In this document: positions 20,209 to 27,098 of the stretch, piece by piece
Position numbering within the stretch: the first letter of the stretch is position 1
How the letters are laid out: each line of letters starts with the position of its first letter
Source: Escherichia phage vB_EcoM_LMP33
Sequence record: MK482689.1
Reading direction: 5' to 3' (one strand)
Length of the DNA: 64,000 bases
The notes under the pieces: generated by a model
The model's database searches: none
Told to the model about the DNA's origin: nothing
What the model saw: the letters and a program-made list of their open reading frames with translations, nothing else
Made by a program: the position numbers and the translations under genes

Positions 20209-21101
20209 GAGAGAAAACTATGAAAACATCTATCCGTGTTACAGTTCATTCACCAACTAAAGGAACTCATGAAGAAGAGTTTAACATCATCCAATTTCCT
20301 TCTGGTGAGATTGGTGGGCACTTTTCGCCAGAGTTTGTTGATTTCACTGCTTATGCAGCATCATCCATCAACAATGTGATTATGATTGTAAAAGGTTATG
20401 ATAAGGATACATTGTTTGCTGTGGCACTTGCTAAAGAAGCAATTGATGATTTAATTCCTCATGATTATGCTTTAAAGACTGTCATCTTTTACTACTTACC
20501 AAATGCACGTTATGACCGTCACATGTTTAAAGGCGACGCAGCAGCTTTAAAGGTTTTTGCTAAACAGGTAAATGCAATGGGATTTGGTGCAGTCTGTGCA
20601 GTTGACCCTCACAGTTACGTTCCAGATAACCTGTTTAACTGCTTCCAGAGTATTCCTCAAAAGGAGATTGCAGTTCACTACGCAAATGACCCACTGATTG
20701 ATTACTTAGTAGCCCCAGATGCAGGTGCTGCTAAGAAGATTGCAGAGACTGCTAAAGAGGTGGATAAACCATACATCACAATGTCTAAGGTGCGTAACCT
20801 TAAGACTGGTGAAATTACTGGTATGCGAATCCTTGACGATGTTGATTTGACAGATAAAACTGTCATGATTCTGGATGATATTTGTGATGGAGGTCGAACC
20901 TTCATAGAAGCAGCCAAACATCTTCGTGAAGCAGGTGCAAAACGTGTGGAACTCTATGTAACTCATGGTATTTTCTCTAAAGATGTTGAAAACTTGCTTG
21001 ACAATGGTATTGACCATATCTACACTACAAACTCTTTAGGGGAAGCTAAAGACCGTGGCTTAACACATTATAGCCAAGTTACTGTAGCAAACCTTGATTA
21101 A
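20205..21101 (+). CDS. ribose-phosphate pyrophosphokinase-like protein (PRPP synthetase family; possible ADP-ribose pyrophosphokinase)
   Basis: 298 aa with a PRTase-type nucleotide-binding motif VMILDDICDGGRTF; directly upstream of a NAMPT-like gene. Confidence 0.6.
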   Translation: MREKTMKTSIRVTVHSPTKGTHEEEFNIIQFPSGEIGGHFSPEFVDFTAYAASSINNVIMIVKGYDKDTLFAVALAKEAIDDLIPHDYALKTVIFYYLPNARYDRHMFKGDAAALKVFAKQVNAMGFGAVCAVDPHSYVPDNLFNCFQSIPQKEIAVHYANDPLIDYLVAPDAGAAKKIAETAKEVDKPYITMSKVRNLKTGEITGMRILDDVDLTDKTVMILDDICDGGRTFIEAAKHLREAGAKRVELYVTHGIFSKDVENLLDNGIDHIYTTNSLGEAKDRGLTHYSQVTVANLD

Positions 21102-21146
21102 AACTTTATAGGGGCTTCCAAGCCCCATTTTGAGAGAGATTAAAAG

Positions 21147-22928
21147 ATGACTAAATCACTTTATGCAGTACCAGCAGGTTTAAATGCAGATGCTTACAAA
21201 TCTGGTCATGTTTACCAGTATCCTAGCGCAACAGAGTACTTGATGTTCAATCTGACACCACGTAGCGACAAATGGTTTAACAGCCCCTTAGCAATTGACG
21301 GTGTAGTGGCTTTTGGTATTCAACGTTTTGTTAAAGATTACTTGATAGACCACTGGAATGCCACTTTCTTTGAACGTGATAAAAAAGAAGCCATTGATGA
21401 AATCTTAGAAGTCATGAATGGTGTTCTGGGTAAAGATGCTATCGGTCGAGAGCATTGGGAAGCACTTCACGACTTAGGTTATCTACCAGTTGAAGTATAC
21501 GCTGTAGAAGAAGGCACAGTTGTTCCAATGCGTGTCCCGATGATTGTCTTTCAGAACACTGTTTCAGGTTTTCATTGGGTAGCAGGTTATCTGGAAGATG
21601 CTTTCTCTGCTGAAATTTGGAAGGCTTGCACCATTGCAACTATTGCATTGCATTACAAACGCATCTGTAAGAAGTGGGCTGACCTTACTTGTGACAATGA
21701 CTTACATTTACCTTATCAGTGCCATGATTTTGCTATGCGTGGTATGTCCGGCTTTACTGATGACGCATTTAACGCTGTAGGTCACTTAACCAGCTTTAAA
21801 GGGACTGATAGCTTCCCTGCTGTATACACGGCTAAACGAATCTATGGACAGTCCTACCCAATCTCTGATATTGGTAGTTCTGTACCAGCCACTGAGCACT
21901 CTGTAATGTGTGCAAACATTGCTTGGGAAGGTGGTAATGAGTTGATTGAAGAAGAAAGACGCTTTAAAGGTGAGTTACAAACCTTCCGTCGTTTCTTAAC
22001 AGAAACTTACCCAACAGGTATTGCAAGCATTGTTTCAGACACTTATAACTTCTGGAGAACTGTGTCAGAAATTTTACCAGCACTCCGTAAAGAAATTATG
22101 GAACGTGATGGCAAACTGGTAATTCGTCCTGACTCTGGAGACCCTGTACATATTGTCACAGGTTATAAAGCAATCCACTTAGAATGTGCTAAGAAGGCTT
22201 ATTACGAGCACCTAAGCAAGCTGGAAGCCAGTGACACAATGTTGAATGCTGTTCTTAACATGAAGCTTGAAAACATCAACTATGGTATTGCTGGATGGCT
22301 ACTGTCAGAAGGCTACGAAATGGTTGTTGATAGAGAAGACTTTGAAGTTGCTGACACAGTGATGTTGAAGAACGCTTATATGGTTGGCTCTGCAAACGTT
22401 GTAACACGCCCTGTAGCAGAGATTGATGGAGCTATTAAGACCTTGTATAACATCTTTGGAGGAACTATCAACTCTAAAGGTTTTAAGGTACTGGATGAGC
22501 ACATTGGCCTTATCTATGGCGACTCTATCACGTTGGAACGTGCAAACGAAATCCTGAAGCGCCTGTATGAAATGGGTTTTGCAAGCTCTAACGTAGTGTT
22601 TGGCGTAGGCTCTTACACTTACCAGTACATGACTCGTGACACCTTTGCATTTGCTGTCAAAGCAACCCTTGCAAGCATTGGTGGTAAAGAGATTATGCTT
22701 GCAAAAGACCCTAAAACAGATAGTGGTGTTAAGAAGTCTGCTTTTGGTGGTGTAGCACCTATGTGGGATGGTGAAAATCTGAAAGCTGTAGATGGCTATG
22801 GGTTCCAGAGCTTTGCAGATGCACTTGAACATCCAGCTTGTGCTTTACGTCTAGTCTTTAGTGACTCTGAGCAGTTCGGCTACACAACTCTTGGTGATAT
22901 TCGAAATAATATTGACAAGCAGCTTTAA
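21147..22928 (+). CDS. nicotinamide phosphoribosyltransferase-like protein (NadV/NAMPT family)
   Basis: 593 aa; N-terminus NADAYKSGHVYQYP resembles the NAMPT TDSYKxxHxxQYP signature; length fits. Confidence 0.65.
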   Translation: MTKSLYAVPAGLNADAYKSGHVYQYPSATEYLMFNLTPRSDKWFNSPLAIDGVVAFGIQRFVKDYLIDHWNATFFERDKKEAIDEILEVMNGVLGKDAIGREHWEALHDLGYLPVEVYAVEEGTVVPMRVPMIVFQNTVSGFHWVAGYLEDAFSAEIWKACTIATIALHYKRICKKWADLTCDNDLHLPYQCHDFAMRGMSGFTDDAFNAVGHLTSFKGTDSFPAVYTAKRIYGQSYPISDIGSSVPATEHSVMCANIAWEGGNELIEEERRFKGELQTFRRFLTETYPTGIASIVSDTYNFWRTVSEILPALRKEIMERDGKLVIRPDSGDPVHIVTGYKAIHLECAKKAYYEHLSKLEASDTMLNAVLNMKLENINYGIAGWLLSEGYEMVVDREDFEVADTVMLKNAYMVGSANVVTRPVAEIDGAIKTLYNIFGGTINSKGFKVLDEHIGLIYGDSITLERANEILKRLYEMGFASSNVVFGVGSYTYQYMTRDTFAFAVKATLASIGGKEIMLAKDPKTDSGVKKSAFGGVAPMWDGENLKAVDGYGFQSFADALEHPACALRLVFSDSEQFGYTTLGDIRNNIDKQL

Positions 22929-22942
22929 AAGTATATGATAAG

Positions 22943-22965
22943 AGGCTCCTACGGGAGCCTTTTTA
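22943..22965 (+). terminator. intrinsic terminator (AGGCTCC-TACG-GGAGCCT + TTTT)
   Basis: Perfect hairpin and T-run after the NAMPT-like gene. Confidence 0.6.
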
Positions 22966-22981
22966 ATTTCTGGAGAAGATT

Positions 22982-23317
22982 ATGAAAATCAAAGAGATGA
23001 ACATCAACATCGTCTTAGAGGAACGTTGGGAGAACATCAAGAAACCTGAAAATGGTCATAAGTTCCTTAACAAAATTTTAGTAGCAGCTAAAGAAGAACT
23101 GACTGGTAAGATTGCAGCAGCAATCACAATAAAGGTCTGTGTAAAAGGTCTTCCAGACAATCACCAATTTGCACTTGACGAGTTTAAAGAAAGCTTCTAC
23201 AATCCAAATAAACAGATGCTTGAAAGTAACTTTGCAGTATCTACAAGTATCGTCCATGACAGAAGCTTTATCCTTTACAAGAATATGAGAGGTGAGTCAT
23301 GCAAGCATATTGGATAG
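22982..23317 (+). CDS. hypothetical protein
   Basis: 111-aa ORF. Confidence 0.3.
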   Translation: MKIKEMNINIVLEERWENIKKPENGHKFLNKILVAAKEELTGKIAAAITIKVCVKGLPDNHQFALDEFKESFYNPNKQMLESNFAVSTSIVHDRSFILYKNMRGESCKHIG

Positions 23318-23475
23318 AAATTTTACTGTCACTCGGTAGTGTAGCAGTTCTTGTTTATCTTCTTTGTAAGTACTTTGCAGAACACAAGAAGTGTGACTAC
23401 TGTAACGGAGAAGGGTATACAAGAGCAGGTTGTTGCCCTATGTGTGGTGGTTCTGGTAAAATGTTTAATAAGTAA
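23299..23475 (+). CDS. small membrane-anchored protein with DnaJ-type zinc-finger repeats (58 aa)
   Basis: N-terminal hydrophobic helix then two CxxCxGxG repeats (CDYCNGEG, CPMCGGSG); below track cutoff. Confidence 0.3.
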   Translation: MQAYWIEILLSLGSVAVLVYLLCKYFAEHKKCDYCNGEGYTRAGCCPMCGGSGKMFNK

Positions 23476-23503
23476 TTTAACAGTAAACTAAGAGGAAAGT
23501 ATT

Positions 23504-25870
23504 ATGCGCATGGTAAATGACCACGCAGAAGTGATTAAGAGTTCAACTTCTTTAGAGACGTCTCAAGCACAGATTACAATGACACCTGAAATGTTCAGCC
23601 TTTTGAGTTCTGGTGTATATACCTTTAAAGAAAGGGCAGTGATTCGTGAACTGTCATGTAACGCAGTAGATGCTCAGAAAGAAGCTGGAAAAGAGAATAT
23701 CCCGTTCCATGTGCATTTACCTACTCGTTTTGAACCTTACTTTGAAGTCCGTGATTTTGGAACTGGATTGACTCATGATAAAGTTATGAGTTTGTACCTA
23801 AACTACGGGGCTTCTACGAAGAATGACTCTAATGACTACATTGGTGCAATGGGTATCGGCTCAAAATCTCCATTTGCAATTGCTCAGTCATTCACAGTGT
23901 CTAGCTATGTTGACGGTGTTGTTAATAAGTACTCTGTTTATCTTGAGAATGGTATCCCTCAAGTAACTAAGCTTACCACTAACCCAACAAAAGAACCTAA
24001 TGGTTTAGCTGTACGTGTGGCAGTTGCTGACCACCGTATTTCAAAGTTCTTTGAAGAGGCTGGTAATGTATACTCATACTTTGCTGTAAAACCAGAGAGT
24101 AATGTGGAGTATAATGATATATTAGCAGATATGGATGTGATTGCTCGTGAAGAAGGTGTCTATGATGCCATGACTCATAAGCATAGCTGGCGTTCAAGCA
24201 GCAATAGAACAGAGTTTAACGTGGTTATGGGTAATATTGCCTACCCAGTTAATATGGAGGCATTACTTGGTGATGATTTCTTCAAAGTATTACCAGAATT
24301 TTTCCGCAGGAGCGTAGACCTTGTAAACATCTACATGCCTATTGGTTCAGTTGCTATTGCAGCTTCTCGTGAAGCATTGCAGATGAATGACACGACAAAA
24401 AATGTTATCATTGAGGCTACTAAAAAGATAACTGAAGCCATTACAAAGGATGTTATCAAGAAAGTTAATAGCCAACCTACACTCATGGATGCTGCACAGG
24501 CTTATGCTGAGTTACGTTTGAACTCACGAGAGATGTTTAATGCTGTGTGTCCAAAGCTAGAGTGGGGTGGTGTTAAGCTTGATTCTCTGGAAGAAGAATT
24601 ACTAAACATTCGTCGTGGAATTATCTACGCAGAAGACGGCTCAGTCATTTATGAACGTGACGGTAAAGGTAATATTAAGGTTGATAGGAACGGGAACAAT
24701 ATACCTAAAGTAGATTATCTTTATGACCCAGTTGCTTATGTCAAGTTCAACTCTTTAGAGAGTAAGATTCGTGCAACATCGCTTTCCTACACTCAAGAGG
24801 CAAGTATGTTCAATATCTTTGGCGCAATGCGTAAAAGCCAAATTGAACAGTTTTTGTTTGTTATAAATGACCGTCGCAATAAAAATGGTACTGAGAAAAC
24901 TGTAGGACGCAATCAAATCTTGCGTGGTGCATGTCGAGACTATGCCAGTGAGTCTAGTCTGTTTCACAGATACAATGGTATTGTCTTTGTATTCTCGACT
25001 GAAAAAGAGTTAGACGACCTAATCAATCTGCACAAACTTGATAAAAGCTTGTTAAAGATTGTGAAGATGTCTGATAAGGAACACCATTATCAGCGTAAAG
25101 AAGCTGTAAGAGGTGTTGTAAAACTCTGGAAAGCTGTTCCAGCAGAAGGTGTAGCTTCCTATAAAGAGGTTTCAGAGGACTTTGATACAATTGAAGAACC
25201 TCAGCTTTACATTAAGGCAGTTGGTGACACAGTTGATGGCGAATGTTTTTGCTCATCTCCAGAAGATGTAGCTAAGTCAGTTGCTAATGTTACAGGTAAG
25301 ACAGTCTATGTTTTCCGAAAAGCAAATTGGAAAAAGATACCAGAAGACTGGATTGAAGTAGATGAGAAGCTCTTGAACGACAGCTTAACTGATGTTCATT
25401 GGATTAATCATAACAGGTATATGACACGTATCTATATGAATGGTGTCCTCGACCTTACAAGCAGTTGGATTATTGCCAGAAACTTTACGTTCAATAACAG
25501 GAAGATTTCTCGTGGCTATTGTTATTCACGGGATACAAACAAAACTATCTTCTTAGAAGGCAATGAAGATGCTGTAGAGGCAATGTTTGGTAAAATCCAA
25601 TACGTTGCTGCACCGTTTGCATATACTTACACTATTAGTAGGTTGCAAACTTTGAAAGACTGCCTTGACAATGATACAAAGCTGTACAAGAAAATTAAGA
25701 AAGCTGGTGACCGTATGGTCATTAAGGTGACAAACTACCTTTCAAAAAGAAAACAAGAAAACTTCTTGCTTTCTCATTTAGATTGGAATAAAGTGTCACC
25801 CATCGAAGTGAGTAAGTTCTTAGGCTTTGATGTGAAGTGTGTTCCAGAAGGGACTACAATTTACGATTAA
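23504..25870 (+). CDS. rIIA: rIIA-like protein (GHKL/Bergerat-type ATPase N-terminal domain)
   Basis: 788 aa immediately upstream of a clear rIIB homolog; N-terminal region has GHKL-like motifs (ELSCNAVDA; RDFGTGLT; GAMGIGSKS). Confidence 0.6.
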   Translation: MRMVNDHAEVIKSSTSLETSQAQITMTPEMFSLLSSGVYTFKERAVIRELSCNAVDAQKEAGKENIPFHVHLPTRFEPYFEVRDFGTGLTHDKVMSLYLNYGASTKNDSNDYIGAMGIGSKSPFAIAQSFTVSSYVDGVVNKYSVYLENGIPQVTKLTTNPTKEPNGLAVRVAVADHRISKFFEEAGNVYSYFAVKPESNVEYNDILADMDVIAREEGVYDAMTHKHSWRSSSNRTEFNVVMGNIAYPVNMEALLGDDFFKVLPEFFRRSVDLVNIYMPIGSVAIAASREALQMNDTTKNVIIEATKKITEAITKDVIKKVNSQPTLMDAAQAYAELRLNSREMFNAVCPKLEWGGVKLDSLEEELLNIRRGIIYAEDGSVIYERDGKGNIKVDRNGNNIPKVDYLYDPVAYVKFNSLESKIRATSLSYTQEASMFNIFGAMRKSQIEQFLFVINDRRNKNGTEKTVGRNQILRGACRDYASESSLFHRYNGIVFVFSTEKELDDLINLHKLDKSLLKIVKMSDKEHHYQRKEAVRGVVKLWKAVPAEGVASYKEVSEDFDTIEEPQLYIKAVGDTVDGECFCSSPEDVAKSVANVTGKTVYVFRKANWKKIPEDWIEVDEKLLNDSLTDVHWINHNRYMTRIYMNGVLDLTSSWIIARNFTFNNRKISRGYCYSRDTNKTIFLEGNEDAVEAMFGKIQYVAAPFAYTYTISRLQTLKDCLDNDTKLYKKIKKAGDRMVIKVTNYLSKRKQENFLLSHLDWNKVSPIEVSKFLGFDVKCVPEGTTIYD

Positions 25871-25949: not shown

Positions 25950-27059
25950 ATGACTACTAAAACTAAAGCACAGATTGACGCAGAAATTTACGAACTGGTT
26001 AAAGAAGGTAAGCTGACTAAAACAGCTATCGCACAGAAGTTCAATACTTCAACCCGTTCAGTTGGTCGTGCTGTAGAGCGTCATGAAGCAACCTTAAAAG
26101 GTAAGAAAAAGGCAACTTCTAAGCCAGCTAAGAAGACCCTAAAGCAAGTTGCTAAGTCAGTTAAAAAGAAAACTGGCAAACCAGTTGAAAAGGTTGTTAA
26201 AGAGGCTGTACAGAAAGCTCCAGTAAATAAACTGCATGAAGCTATGCAGAAAGATGACAAGATTGAGTACATGATTACTGGTGACTCTGTAATTATGACT
26301 TACGGTTCAGAGTCTGAAATTGTTGAATCTACTCATCCGAACTATCAAGAGATTGTAGTTCATGTTGTGAAAGGTGAGTTTAAGAAAGCCTTTGAACTGA
26401 TGAACATTCGTAAGTCTATCGAAAACTTCACTCAGGGTGCTATCACAATCAAAGGTGACAAGCTATTCTACGGTGCTGTTGAGATGCGTTCTACTCTGGT
26501 TGACCGTATTCTTCACATGATGAAAACTGGCGATAAAGGTTTTGAACGACTTGTAATGTTCTTCGAAAAACTGATGGAAAACCCATCTAAAGATTCTGTA
26601 GAACAACTTTGGGGATTTGTATCTCACCTTGATGTTGAGATTGATGAAGAAGGCTACATCATTGGTTGGAAGAAAGTCTCTACTCGTGAAGGCAAGCTGG
26701 TTGACTCTCACACCTACAAAGTGCCTAATGATTTGGGTAACATTGTAGAAATGCCACGTTGGATGGTTGATAATAACCGTAACGTAACTTGCTCTCAAGG
26801 TCTTCATGTTGGTGCTTGGGATTATGTTCGTTGCTTCTCAGGTGATACAATCCTGAAGGTTCGCGTACATCCACGAGATGTTGTATCTGTTCCAACTGAT
26901 TACAACGATATGAAGATGCGTTCCTCTCGTTATGAAGTTGCAGCAATCGTTGATAATCAACGTAAAGTGCTGGAAGCATGGGACGGTAAGACTGAAGCTT
27001 TGCATGTCATCGTTGGCACTGCTGGTGAACTCATCTCTCAACGTAAACGTGAAATCTAA
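25950..27059 (+). CDS. rIIB: rIIB-like protein
   Basis: Strong resemblance to T4 rIIB as recalled from memory (GLHVGAWDYVRCFSG...VRVHPRDVVSVPTDYNDMKMRSSRYEV cf. T4 VKVHPRDVVSIPIDYNDAKMRTCQYEV). Confidence 0.7.
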   Translation: MTTKTKAQIDAEIYELVKEGKLTKTAIAQKFNTSTRSVGRAVERHEATLKGKKKATSKPAKKTLKQVAKSVKKKTGKPVEKVVKEAVQKAPVNKLHEAMQKDDKIEYMITGDSVIMTYGSESEIVESTHPNYQEIVVHVVKGEFKKAFELMNIRKSIENFTQGAITIKGDKLFYGAVEMRSTLVDRILHMMKTGDKGFERLVMFFEKLMENPSKDSVEQLWGFVSHLDVEIDEEGYIIGWKKVSTREGKLVDSHTYKVPNDLGNIVEMPRWMVDNNRNVTCSQGLHVGAWDYVRCFSGDTILKVRVHPRDVVSVPTDYNDMKMRSSRYEVAAIVDNQRKVLEAWDGKTEALHVIVGTAGELISQRKREI

Positions 27060-27076
27060 TAAGTAATTTCTTAAAA

Positions 27077-27098
27077 GGCTGCTTCGGCGGCCTTTTTT
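27077..27098 (+). terminator. intrinsic terminator (GGCTGC-TTCG-GCGGCC + TTTTTT)
   Basis: Hairpin with UUCG loop and T-run after rIIB. Confidence 0.6.

What the first reader, a model, noticed from the sequence alone, without database searches (positions are those of the whole stretch)
23299..23475. 58-aa membrane-anchored mini-protein with two DnaJ-type CxxCxGxG zinc-finger repeats
The track missed it because it is under 60 aa. A TM helix followed by tandem CxxCxGxG motifs resembles the zinc-finger subdomain of DnaJ, hinting at a small chaperone-mimicking or metal-binding effector sitting just upstream of rIIA.
Basis: seen in the sequence. Interest (0 to 1): 0.3.

Follow-up and report, generated by a model that had tools for sequence, protein, structure and literature searches.

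The report
Membrane-anchored zinc-knuckle phage mini-protein
This is a real, conserved but uncharacterised 58-residue gene of a FelixO1-like coliphage, encoding one membrane helix plus a tiny four-cysteine zinc knuckle of the DnaJ/Anti-TRAP type; it is already annotated in public phage genomes, and nothing shows that it mimics a chaperone.

Summary
The ORF at 23299-23475 (+) exists as described: a 58-aa protein with a strong SD, one TM helix and two CxxCxGxG motifs, 28 nt upstream of rIIA.

**It is a real gene**
- The motif occurs only twice in the 64-kb window, both times in this ORF.
- Only this reading frame is open in all 24 distinct homologues, and median dN/dS is 0.14.
- C32, C35, C46, C49 and the motif glycines are invariant down to 40% identity.

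**It is not new as a gene**
- The window is a Felixounavirus, 100% identical to phage LMP34.
- The ORF is annotated in GenBank and belongs to PHROG 3931 (function unknown).

**The family is wider than that PHROG**
- It sits before rIIA in four Ounavirinae genera.
- It sits after the glutaredoxin gene nrdH in T4-like Krischvirus (RB49p046).

**"DnaJ-type" holds only at motif level**
- All curated cut-offs fail.
- There is no J domain and only two of DnaJ's four repeats.
- Two repeats with a 10-residue spacer imply one Cys4 zinc site, as in Bacillus Anti-TRAP, the best fold match.
- The closest match in architecture is plant FIP.

**Best reading:** an N-out/C-in inner-membrane tether presenting a zinc-knuckle protein-binding module. 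The partner is unknown. A chaperone-mimic role is unsupported.

The parts
23299..23475 (+). CDS of the 58-aa mini-protein, stop codon included; member of PHROG 3931
   Evidence: PHROG 3931 E=1.8e-33 over the full length. Annotated as QBQ76120.1 in MK482690. dN/dS 0.14. Only open frame in all homologues.
23289..23295 (+). Shine-Dalgarno sequence GAGGTGA, 3 nt before the ATG
   Evidence: Sequence read. A GGAG-type element at the same distance is conserved in Moogle- and Suspvirus loci.
23311..23367 (+). Codons 5-23, the transmembrane helix (WIEILLSLGSVAVLVYLLC) with conserved E7, S11 and G13
   Evidence: Kyte-Doolittle 2.16-2.32. AF2 helix at residues 4-28. Invariant Y4, W5, E7, L10, S11, G13, L22.
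23392..23415 (+). Motif 1: C32-x2-C35-x-G37-x-G39 (Zn ligands C32 and C35)
   Evidence: Invariant in all homologues, including Kolesnikvirus gp117 and RB49p046.
23434..23457 (+). Motif 2: C46-x2-C49-x-G51-x-G53 (Zn ligands C46 and C49). C45 in front of it is replaceable (Pro in P0012).
   Evidence: There are 10 residues between C35 and C46 (11 in Mooglevirus and P0014), the same as Anti-TRAP and DnaJ repeats 3-4.
22982..23317 (+). Upstream 111-aa ORF (PHROG 4262, unknown function). Its last 19 nt overlap the start of the mini-gene, which suggests translational coupling.
   Evidence: PHROG 4262 E=1.7e-68. The 19-nt overlap is conserved in Felixouna-, Moogle- and Suspvirus. The AF2 model is beta-alpha-beta-alpha-beta-beta with pLDDT 69, and gives only weak IF3-C-like fold matches.
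22912..22939 (+). Sigma-70-like promoter candidate (TTGACA-16-TATGAT, 11/12) at the head of the 111-aa/mini-gene unit
   Evidence: A TTGACA-N16-TATNAT element is conserved right after the Nampt-like gene in all genera examined. Consensus match only; not shown to be functional.
22940..22963 (+). Terminator-like hairpin (10 bp, T-run) closing the NARP1 genes
   Evidence: A terminator is annotated at the equivalent place in phiEa21-4.
23504..25870 (+). rIIA, 28 nt downstream; no convincing separate promoter in this window
   Evidence: PHROG 612 E=7e-190. Annotation. Spacer analysis.
25950..27059 (+). rIIB, followed by a terminator-like hairpin at 27073-27096
   Evidence: PHROG 609 E=2e-89. Terminator.
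20220..22928 (+). Upstream neighbours: Prs-like (20220-21101) and Nampt-like (21147-22928) genes, i.e. the NARP1 (Adps+Namat) counter-defence operon of Felixounavirus
   Evidence: Pfam PF14572/PF00156 and PF04095. Annotation. NARP1 was shown experimentally in Felixounavirus Bas63 genes 79-80 (bioRxiv 10.1101/2024.02.11.579819; Bas63 genus from PMC8594841).

Best explanation
The ORF is a genuine phage gene. It probably belongs to the early or metabolic module, is transcribed from a sigma-70-like promoter just after the NARP1 genes, and is translationally coupled to the preceding 111-aa ORF.

Its product is a bitopic inner-membrane protein. A 4-5-residue N-terminus faces the periplasm. One TM helix (about residues 5-23) carries conserved polar positions E7, S11 and G13. 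A 35-residue C-terminal tail lies in the cytoplasm.

In that tail C32, C35, C46 and C49 bind one Zn2+. This folds the two CxxCxGxG motifs into a single zinc knuckle of the kind seen in Anti-TRAP and in each zinc centre of the DnaJ Cys-rich domain. The knuckle is held within 6-9 residues of the membrane surface.

It most likely acts as a protein-protein interaction module that binds, recruits or sequesters a partner at the cytoplasmic face of the inner membrane, as an adaptor or inhibitor. It is not likely to be an enzyme or an autonomous chaperone. The partner is unknown. Candidates are rIIA/rIIB, the coupled 111-aa protein, or a host membrane-associated factor such as FtsH, by analogy with plant FIP.

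Shown here: the gene is real, it is under purifying selection, it has this architecture, and the ligand residues are conserved. Inferred: Zn binding, N-out/C-in topology, timing of expression and a binding function.
For: **Real gene under selection**
-.

**Conservation**
- Present in 257 Ounavirinae records, the same number that carry an rIIA at 60% identity or more.
- Also present in 36 Kolesnikvirus records and about 60 Krischvirus records.

**Homology across lineages**
- hhalign of the Ounavirinae profile against RB49p046+P0114: 97.9% probability over 50 columns, TM segment included.
- hhalign against phiEa21-4 gp117: 96.5% probability.

**Invariant features across all lineages**
- Four Cys and four Gly are invariant.
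- Cys2-to-Cys3 spacing is fixed at 10-11 residues.

**Zn-knuckle assignment**
- Profile against PDB sequences: DnaJ Cys-rich domain E=1.8e-7 and Anti-TRAP E=0.03, the latter ungapped over the 23 residues shown.
- The AF2 model's best PDB fold matches are three Anti-TRAP structures, rmsd 1.0-1.6 A over 23-27 residues, probability up to 0.95.

**Topology**
- No Lys or Arg lies N-terminal of the TM segment in any of 8 diverse members.
- Lys/Arg follow the TM directly in 7 of 8, which fits the positive-inside rule (established knowledge).

**TM is more than an anchor**
- The TM half is as constrained as the Zn half, with pN/pS 0.35 against 0.36.

**Binding-module precedents**
- Anti-TRAP binds TRAP.
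- FIP, which is a TM segment plus two CxxCxGxG motifs, binds FtsH5 (PMC5915565).

**Signals**
- Promoter-like site, SD and gene overlap are conserved.
Against: - No expression, metal-binding or topology data exist.
- AF2 confidence is only moderate (pLDDT 72).
- Foldseek E-values are not significant for so small a domain (0.2-2).
- The linker after the TM is net acidic in Moogle-, Susp- and P0014-type members, and P0014 has no Lys/Arg there. The C-in topology is therefore not secure.
- CxxCxGxG repeats also occur in proteins with signal peptides or lipoboxes, so an extracytoplasmic location is possible.
- The partner is entirely unknown.
- The upstream coupled gene differs between lineages: PHROG 4262, gp116, or NrdH/thioredoxin.
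- Occasional frameshifted copies exist. These could be sequencing errors or a sign that the gene is dispensable.
Confidence: 0.55

Rival explanations
1. rII accessory subunit. The mini-protein works specifically with the membrane-associated rIIA/rIIB proteins, for example by anchoring or regulating them at the inner membrane, as part of the anti-exclusion and membrane-integrity function of rII.
For: - It lies immediately upstream of rIIA in four Ounavirinae genera.
- It shows 1:1 co-occurrence with rIIA at 60% identity or more, 257 records against 257.
- In this window the spacer is only 28 nt with no convincing separate promoter.
Against: - The Krischvirus homologue RB49p046 lies about 28 kb from rIIA, beside nrdH. 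The small genes next to rIIA in RB49 and T4 are unrelated.
- The Ounavirinae phage LPML1, with a 45%-identical rIIA, has an unrelated soluble 52-aa ORF in the slot.
- In Moogle- and Suspviruses rIIA is separated by 58-67 nt holding its own promoter-like element and a hairpin.
- Most of the 2,920 phage records with an rIIA match lack any detectable mini-protein homologue.
Confidence: 0.15
2. Thiol-disulfide (redox) element. The cysteines cycle between dithiol and disulfide, like the oxidoreductase activity reported for the DnaJ zinc finger and for plant LQY1/CYO1-type proteins. The mini-protein would serve as a membrane-bound partner or substrate of a phage redoxin.
For: - In about 60 Krischvirus genomes the homologue overlaps the 3' end of the glutaredoxin gene nrdH.
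- The related P0114 overlaps a thioredoxin-domain gene.
- In Ounavirinae the gene lies at the end of the RNR and nucleotide-metabolism module.
- An extra conserved Cys, C45, is adjacent to a ligand.
Against: - In Ounavirinae the coupled upstream gene is not a redoxin. hhalign against NrdH gives 0.3% probability, and it has no CxxC.
- The strict CxxCxGxG glycines and the fixed spacing are hallmarks of structural Zn sites.
- C45 is not invariant (P0012, gp117, P0114 and P0137).
Confidence: 0.12
3. DnaJ mimic. The zinc knuckle imitates the DnaJ zinc centre to hijack or block DnaK/DnaJ, or to hold unfolded clients at the membrane.
For: - Motif-level and profile-level similarity to the DnaJ Cys-rich domain.
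- Some GenBank records label the gene 'heat shock protein' or 'dnaJ: chaperone protein'. These labels are motif-based and not experimental.
Against: - No J domain, G/F region or C-terminal client-binding domains.
- Only half of the four-repeat, two-zinc Cys-rich domain is present.
- All curated DnaJ thresholds fail by a wide margin.
- The fold match is better to Anti-TRAP than to DnaJ: rmsd 1.0-1.6 A against 3.6 A.
- No contextual link to chaperone genes.
Confidence: 0.07
4. Periplasm-facing (N-in/C-out) cysteine-rich domain acting in lysis control or superinfection exclusion. It could be the 'missing' holin or antiholin of FelixO1-like phages, or an Imm/Sp-like exclusion factor.
For: - It is a small single-TM protein.
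- FelixO1-type phages lack an identified holin next to the lysin (PMC4837284).
- The linker is acidic in several members.
- Secreted CxxCxGxG-repeat proteins exist.
- It sits next to rII 'lysis inhibition' genes.
Against: - The N-terminus has no positive n-region, and Lys/Arg follow the TM in 7 of 8 members.
- It is located in the metabolic/early module behind a sigma-70-like promoter, not in a late lysis cassette.
- Krischviruses, which have a T4-type holin (established knowledge), also keep a homologue.
- There is no match to any holin, antiholin or spanin family.
Confidence: 0.07
5. Spurious or non-functional ORF, or a mere leader for translational coupling into rIIA.
For: - It is very short.
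- A few frameshifted copies exist in databases.
Against: - dN/dS is 0.14.
- The ligand residues are invariant down to 28-47% identity.
- Only this frame is open.
- The SD is conserved.
- It is conserved in three distinct genomic contexts.
Confidence: 0.02

Closest known systems
PHROG 3931 / Felix O1 'hypothetical membrane protein' Felix01p243 (NP_945023)
   Same: It is the same protein family. The full-length match has E=1.8e-33, with 91-100% identity across Felixounavirus and the same position between the 111-aa ORF and rIIA.
   Different: Nothing differs. This is membership. The family has no assigned function.
Erwinia phage phiEa21-4 gp117 (Kolesnikvirus) and Escherichia phage RB49 p046 (Krischvirus, T4-like)
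   Same: - They are 52-54 aa, with a short acidic N-terminus, one TM helix and basic residues right after it.
- Both have C-x2-C-x-G-x-G, a 10-residue spacer, then C-x2-C-x-G-x-G.
- hhalign probabilities are 96.5% and 97.9%.
- gp117 also sits directly upstream of rIIA.
   Different: - They fall outside PHROG 3931 at ordinary search sensitivity. tblastn from the window protein at E<=0.01 did not reach them, and gp117 as query at E<=0.1 did not reach the window's family.
- RB49p046 is coupled to nrdH (glutaredoxin), not to rIIA.
- The upstream partner genes are unrelated to one another.
Anti-TRAP (RtpA) of Bacillus subtilis and B. licheniformis (PDB 2bx9, 3lcz, 3ld0)
   Same: - A protein of about 53 aa whose two adjacent CxxC motifs, with the same 10-residue spacer, bind a single Zn.
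- It is the best structural match to the model, at rmsd 1.0-1.6 A.
- The profile hit has E=0.03.
- It functions purely as a protein-binding inhibitor (established knowledge).
   Different: - Anti-TRAP is soluble and has a C-terminal helix that drives trimer and dodecamer assembly. The phage protein has an N-terminal TM helix instead.
- The NCBIfam RtpA score is 11 bits against a cut-off of 65.
- There is no TRAP in enterobacteria (my own knowledge; not checked here).
DnaJ/Hsp40 cysteine-rich domain (Pfam PF00684; PDB 1exk)
   Same: - The CxxCxGxG motif itself.
- The profile match to 1exk has E=1.8e-7. The ungapped alignment is to repeats 3-4, which have the same 10-residue spacing.
   Different: - DnaJ has four repeats that form two interleaved Zn centres, 1+4 and 2+3 (established knowledge, Martinez-Yamout et al. 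2000). The phage protein has two repeats, so it can form one centre.
- It has no J domain, G/F region or C-terminal domains.
- It scores below the Pfam and NCBIfam cut-offs.
- It is membrane-anchored.
Plant FIP (FtsH5-Interacting Protein, At5g02160) and other J-domain-less DnaJ-like zinc-finger membrane proteins (LQY1, BSD2-type)
   Same: - FIP has the identical domain logic: one hydrophobic membrane anchor followed by a C4 zinc finger made of two CxxCxGxG repeats, with no J domain.
- FIP acts by binding a membrane protease, FtsH5 (PMC5915565).
   Different: - FIP is eukaryotic, located in the thylakoid, longer, and carries a transit peptide.
- Sequence homology beyond the motif was not tested, because no FIP sequence was at hand.
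- BSD2 was only a very weak fold hit (E=9.6).

Membership tests
PHROG 3931 (phage protein family, unknown function) | Full-length match to the family HMM | tested here: met
   E=1.8e-33, 115 bits, residues 1-58 against profile positions 1-59 of 59.
DnaJ/Hsp40 (type I J-domain proteins) | J domain with an HPD motif | tested here: not met
   No J-domain hit in Pfam or NCBIfam. The 58 residues are fully accounted for by the TM helix and the Zn motifs.
DnaJ/Hsp40 (type I J-domain proteins) | Cys-rich domain with four CxxCxGxG repeats (two Zn centres) scoring above the Pfam PF00684 gathering threshold | tested here: not met
   Only two repeats. PF00684 scores 17.1 bits against a cut-off of 32.7, matching only profile positions 33-65 of 65. 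TIGR02349 scores 17.3 against 377.
DnaJ-type zinc knuckle (motif/fold level, not family membership) | CxxCxGxG pairs with conserved Cys and Gly and significant profile similarity to solved Cys-rich domains | tested here: met
   1exk E=1.8e-7 and 2ctt E=1.3e-6. The Cys and Gly are invariant in all lineages.
Anti-TRAP (RtpA) | NCBIfam NF058604 equivalog score at or above the cut-off | tested here: not met
   11 bits against a cut-off of 65.
Anti-TRAP (RtpA) | Single Zn site from two adjacent CxxC motifs with a 10-residue spacer, and the same knuckle fold | tested here: inconclusive
   The spacing is identical. The top three Foldseek PDB hits are Anti-TRAP at rmsd 1.0-1.6 A, but with E=0.2-1.5 and model pLDDT 72. 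Zn stoichiometry cannot be tested here.
Anti-TRAP (RtpA) | Soluble protein with a C-terminal helix forming trimers and dodecamers that bind TRAP | tested here: not met
   The phage protein ends 5 residues after motif 2 and instead has an N-terminal TM helix.
FIP-like membrane-anchored, J-less DnaJ-type zinc-finger proteins (plants) | Architecture: one membrane anchor, a C-terminal C4 finger made of two CxxCxGxG, and no J domain | tested here: met
   Architecture, compared with the description in PMC5915565. This is analogy only.
FIP-like membrane-anchored, J-less DnaJ-type zinc-finger proteins (plants) | Sequence homology to FIP and binding to FtsH | not tested
Interaction needs an experiment.
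Holins / antiholins | Match to a holin or antiholin family, location in a late lysis cassette, and a highly charged C-terminal domain | tested here: not met
   No holin family hit in Pfam, PHROGs or NCBIfam. The gene lies in the RNR/NAD/rII module. A homologue is kept in T4-like Krischvirus, apart from the lysis genes.
Known anti-phage defence proteins (PADLOC) | Match to any PADLOC model | tested here: not met
   No hit for the mini-protein or for its 111-aa neighbour.

The most novel reading that the evidence does not exclude
The 52-60-aa 'TM helix plus single zinc knuckle' proteins of Ounavirinae and Krischvirus, together with look-alikes in other phage contigs, would form a widespread and so far unrecognised class of phage host-takeover or counter-defence factors. 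They would dock onto a host inner-membrane protein through both the conserved polar TM face and the membrane-proximal zinc knuckle. The target could be FtsH, as plant FIP does, or the membrane effector of an abortive-infection system. In Felixounaviruses this protein would then be a third counter-defence element wedged between NARP1 and rIIA/rIIB.
Probability: 0.15. Interest if true: 0.6.

Novelty: new member of a known kind. Interest (0 to 1): 0.3.

Why it matters
On its own this is an ordinary result. A small, already annotated hypothetical phage gene is confirmed as real, and its motif is assigned more precisely: one Cys4 zinc knuckle of the Anti-TRAP type on a membrane tether, not a DnaJ fragment.

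Three points make it worth a modest follow-up.
- The gene is strictly conserved in two major groups of coliphages used in therapy and biocontrol.
- It sits between two experimentally supported counter-defence modules, NARP1 and rII.
- It is small enough for quick genetics. Cas13a deletion has already been established in the Felixounavirus Bas63.

The analysis also corrects misleading database labels ('heat shock protein', 'dnaJ chaperone'). It links PHROG 3931 to Kolesnikvirus gp117 and RB49p046, which ordinary searches keep apart.

Tried and rejected
- **T4 rIIA.1 and RB49's rIIA-adjacent small ORFs as counterparts.** They are soluble, have no Cys motifs and are unrelated.
- **The 111-aa partner as a redoxin or as a homologue of phiEa21-4 gp116.** hhalign probabilities were 0.3% and 1.3%. 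Its fold search gave only weak IF3-C-like matches, and the PDB sequence search gave one spurious lysozyme hit.
- **PADLOC.** No hits.
- **Rfam on 22700-23700.** Nothing near any gathering score.
- **Alternative reading frames, including the 46-aa +1-frame ORF and the 41-aa antisense ORF.** They are closed in homologues.
- **IMG/VR loci L028-L031.** These are zinc-finger-only matches inside larger proteins. L029, for example, is a 524-aa portal-like protein. They are not homologues.
- **The word-indexed protein search.** It was too insensitive and returned only 7-13 proteins. The exhaustive HMM search of 1.84 billion representatives found four full-length relatives at E<=3e-19 (P0010, P0008, P0002, P0014), two weak full-length look-alikes at E of 2-4e-5 (P0114, P0137), two frameshifted or partial copies (P0004, P0005), and otherwise multi-repeat CxxCxGxG proteins.
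- **Distant look-alike P0137.** Its context was uninformative, with no PHROG hits.
- **Literature.** No paper combines Felixounavirus with DnaJ or heat shock protein. 'Felix O1' plus 'zinc finger' returned one irrelevant paper, and one search was mis-specified and wasted. Only genome tables list the gene as 'hypothetical membrane protein'.
- **The holin idea.** Considered and rejected on context and on conservation in Krischvirus.
Full report
**1. The observation**

The window carries an ATG-initiated ORF at 23299-23475 on the + strand. It encodes MQAYWIEILLSLGSVAVLVYLLCKYFAEHKKCDYCNGEGYTRAGCCPMCGGSGKMFNK.

- A 7-nt Shine-Dalgarno match (GAGGTGA) ends 3 nt before the ATG.
- Residues 5-23 form a hydrophobic segment, with Kyte-Doolittle means of 2.16 over 19 residues and 2.32 over 17. 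AlphaFold2 models residues 4-28 as a helix.
- Two CxxCxGxG motifs follow, at C32-G39 and C46-G53.
- rIIA starts 28 nt downstream, and rIIB follows it.

**2. More than chance, and really coding**

- The degenerate DNA pattern for CxxCxGxG matches only twice in the 64 kb on both strands. Both matches are in this ORF, in frame and 42 nt apart, against an expectation of 0.25.
- Across 24 distinct homologous DNA sequences, only the annotated frame is free of stop codons. The other five frames average 1.9-5.3 stops.
- Variable sites by codon position are 33/24/49, and median pairwise dN/dS is 0.14. The TM half and the Zn half are equally constrained, with pN/pS 0.35 and 0.36.
- No Rfam family reaches its gathering threshold in the region.

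**3. Where the window comes from, and whether the gene is new**

The region is 100% identical to Escherichia phage vB_EcoM_LMP34 (Ounavirinae, Felixounavirus), and 254 phage records match it.

The ORF is annotated there as hypothetical protein QBQ76120.1. Other records call it 'putative membrane protein' or 'heat shock protein'. A published genome table lists it as 'hypothetical membrane protein Felix01p243' (PMC4837284). It matches PHROG 3931 (unknown function) over its full length at E=1.8e-33. It was therefore missed only by a 60-aa ORF threshold, not by the field.

**4. Conservation and synteny**

tblastn finds the protein in 257 phage records, all FelixO1-like: Felixounavirus, Mooglevirus and Suspvirus. 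That equals the number of records carrying an rIIA at 60% identity or more to the window's.

Down to 40-47% identity the following are invariant: C32, C35, C46, C49, G37, G39, G51, G53 and P47, plus Y4, W5, E7, L10, S11, G13 and L22 in the N-terminal half. C45 can be Pro, and C23 can be Ala.

The gene order is conserved: Prs-like, Nampt-like, an optional 71-aa gene, the 111-aa ORF (PHROG 4262), the mini-gene, rIIA, rIIB. The 19-nt overlap between the 111-aa ORF and the mini-gene is also conserved. So are a GGAG-type SD and a TTGACA-N16-TATNAT promoter-like element just after the Nampt-like gene.

An exhaustive HMM search of 1.84 billion representative proteins found:
- four full-length relatives at E<=3e-19, all of this phage type;
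- two weak full-length look-alikes, P0114 and P0137, at E of about 2-4e-5;
- two frameshifted or partial copies, P0004 and P0005.

Everything else matched only on the CxxCxGxG repeats.

**5. The family is wider than it first appears**

A fold search against predicted viral structures pointed to small proteins of Erwinia phage phiEa21-4 (gp117) and of the T4-like phage RB49.

*phiEa21-4 gp117.* This Kolesnikvirus protein is 54 aa, with a TM helix, 'AAKYR', then C-x2-C-x-G-x-G, a 10-residue spacer and C-x2-C-x-G-x-G. It lies at the genome end directly upstream of rIIA, after nadV, a terminator, gp115 and gp116. It is present in 36 Kolesnikvirus records, several of them labelled 'dnaJ: chaperone protein'.

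*RB49p046.* This 52-aa protein has the same design. It is conserved in about 60 Krischvirus genomes, where it overlaps the 3' end of the glutaredoxin gene nrdH. Used as a tblastn query it retrieves about 197 Felixounavirus mini-genes at roughly 42% identity over residues 3-48.

*Profile-profile comparison.* The Ounavirinae alignment against RB49p046+P0114 gives 97.9% probability over 50 columns, TM segment included. Against gp117 it gives 96.5%. P0114 likewise overlaps a thioredoxin-domain gene.

*Where the rIIA link fails.* The unclassified Ounavirinae phage LPML1, with a 45%-identical rIIA, has an unrelated soluble 52-aa ORF in the slot. T4 rIIA.1 and the small genes next to RB49's rIIA are also unrelated.

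The mini-protein is therefore the constant element while its neighbours change. The link to rIIA is real within Ounavirinae but not general.

**6. What the zinc motif is**

Single-sequence scans give only sub-threshold hits:
- Pfam DnaJ_CXXCXGXG, 17.1 bits against a cut-off of 32.7;
- DUF5351, 18.6 against 27;
- NCBIfam DnaJ, 17 against 377;
- NCBIfam RtpA, 11 against 65.

A family profile searched against PDB sequences finds the DnaJ Cys-rich domain (1exk E=1.8e-7; DNAJA3 2ctt E=1.3e-6) and Anti-TRAP (2bx9 E=0.03).

The spacer between the second and third Cys is 10 residues, or 11 in Mooglevirus and P0014. Anti-TRAP and DnaJ repeats 3-4 have the same spacing.

In DnaJ the four repeats form two interleaved zinc centres, 1+4 and 2+3 (established knowledge from the 1EXK structure). 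Sequence-adjacent repeats do not share a metal there. A protein with only two repeats can make one Cys4 site, which is exactly what Anti-TRAP does.

Consistent with this, the three best PDB fold matches of the AF2 model (pLDDT 72) are Anti-TRAP structures, at rmsd 1.0-1.6 A over 23-27 residues. They rank ahead of DnaJ at 3.6 A. E-values are not significant for so small a domain.

The accurate description is 'one DnaJ/Anti-TRAP-type zinc knuckle', not 'the zinc-finger subdomain of DnaJ'.

**7. Topology (inferred)**

In eight diverse members no Lys or Arg precedes the TM segment, and five of them have an acidic residue in the short N-terminal flank. Lys/Arg follow the TM directly in seven of eight. 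By the positive-inside rule this favours N-out/C-in. That places the Cys4 site in the reducing cytoplasm, 6-9 residues from the membrane surface in most members (2-10 across all eight), which suits Zn binding.

Two caveats apply. The linker is net acidic in Moogle-, Susp- and P0014-type members. Signal-peptide-bearing CxxCxGxG repeat proteins also exist.

**8. Context**

In LMP34 the gene ends a long module on one strand: nrdA, nrdB, nrdD, nrdG, then Prs-like, Nampt-like, the 111-aa ORF, the mini-gene, rIIA and rIIB.

The Prs-like and Nampt-like genes have the expected Pfam domains (PF14572/PF00156 and PF04095). They correspond to genes 79-80 of the Felixounavirus Bas63. Those genes were shown experimentally to be the NARP1 NAD+-reconstitution counter-defence operon (bioRxiv 10.1101/2024.02.11.579819; genus from PMC8594841).

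The mini-gene therefore lies between two counter-defence or anti-exclusion modules. This is suggestive but is only guilt by association.

The 111-aa partner has no family beyond PHROG 4262. Its moderate-confidence beta-alpha-beta-alpha-beta-beta model gives only weak IF3-C-like fold matches.

**9. Mechanism**

The best-supported reading (confidence about 0.55) is a bitopic N-out/C-in inner-membrane protein whose cytoplasmic tail binds one Zn through C32, C35, C46 and C49. It presents a small protein-binding knuckle at the membrane surface. The TM helix is as conserved as the knuckle and carries invariant polar positions, so it probably also contacts a membrane partner.

Two precedents use this kind of knuckle as a pure binding module. 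Anti-TRAP binds TRAP. Plant FIP has the same TM plus 2xCxxCxGxG layout without a J domain and binds the membrane protease FtsH5 (PMC5915565).

The partner here is unknown. The rivals are:
- an rII-specific accessory role (0.15);
- a thiol-disulfide role suggested by the nrdH/thioredoxin coupling in Krischvirus and P0114 (0.12);
- DnaJ/DnaK mimicry (0.07);
- a periplasmic lysis or exclusion role (0.07);
- a spurious ORF (0.02).

**10. Verdict**

The gene is real and conserved, and it carries a DnaJ-type zinc motif on a membrane anchor next to rIIA. It is already annotated, it is not a DnaJ family member, and it is better compared with Anti-TRAP (fold) and FIP (architecture). It has no evidence for chaperone mimicry.

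Novelty: a new, uncharacterised phage member of a known kind of module. Interest is modest (0.3). The main added value is the link between PHROG 3931, Kolesnikvirus gp117 and Krischvirus RB49p046, together with a concrete and cheap experimental path.

Noticed in passing
window 20220-22928: The 'ribose-phosphate pyrophosphokinase' and 'nicotinamide phosphoribosyltransferase' genes just upstream correspond to the NARP1 (Adps+Namat) NAD+-reconstitution counter-defence operon. NARP1 was demonstrated in the Felixounavirus Bas63, so the GenBank product names are probably functionally wrong.
   Followed up: partly
P0165; corresponds to window ~20220-20400 fused to ~23150-23317: A 116-aa database protein joins the N-terminus of the Prs/Adps-like protein to the C-terminal half of the 111-aa ORF. 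This implies a variant genome in which most of NARP1 is deleted.
   Followed up: no
window 23351-23491 (+1 frame); P0003, P0005-P0007, P0004: A few database entries are frameshifted versions of the mini-gene. Some are 63-aa products ending in the +1 frame, and one is a 41-aa product that starts in it. All are singletons, against clusters of 262, 52 and 25 intact members. One Erwinia phage (vEam_PM_6) also matches only residues 31-54 of gp117. These are either sequencing errors or occasional loss.
   Followed up: partly
L029 2778-4352: A 524-aa portal-like phage protein carries an embedded CKECKGTG-x8-CPHCNGTG zinc-knuckle pair. The same two-motif module is inserted in a structural protein.
   Followed up: no
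GU169904 (Staphylococcus phage SA1), MG065664 (Campylobacter phage A132), OK283618 (Listeria phage LPML1): Records labelled with Gram-positive or Campylobacter hosts carry FelixO1-like (Ounavirinae) DNA, including this mini-gene at 91% identity in SA1. Contamination or host mislabelling is likely.
   Followed up: no
L005 594-1085 (Citrobacter phage Moogle); L004/L005 2972-3194; L032 1197-1412: The module is plastic. An HNH homing endonuclease is inserted between the Prs-like and Nampt-like genes in Moogle. An optional 71-aa gene lies between the Nampt-like gene and the 111-aa ORF, and its L032 copy carries Pfam DUF7279.
   Followed up: no
L004-L007, L022, L027, L032: 58-67-nt spacer between the mini-gene and rIIA; window 23476-23503: In Moogle- and Suspviruses the spacer before rIIA contains a TTGACA element plus an inverted repeat, which may be rIIA's own promoter or operator. 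The window's spacer is only 28 nt and lacks it.
   Followed up: partly
P0036, P0038, P0096, P0148: Bacterial or metagenomic proteins with a signal peptide or lipobox followed by many CxxCxGxG repeats. This shows the motif is also used outside the cytoplasm.
   Followed up: no
window 22982-23317: The 111-aa partner (PHROG 4262) is more conserved than the mini-protein, at 59-66% against 47-59% identity across genera. Its model is a beta-alpha-beta-alpha-beta-beta fold with weak IF3 C-terminal-domain resemblance (TM about 0.45). Its invariant C107-K108 is forced by the overlapping ATG-CAA of the mini-gene.
   Followed up: partly
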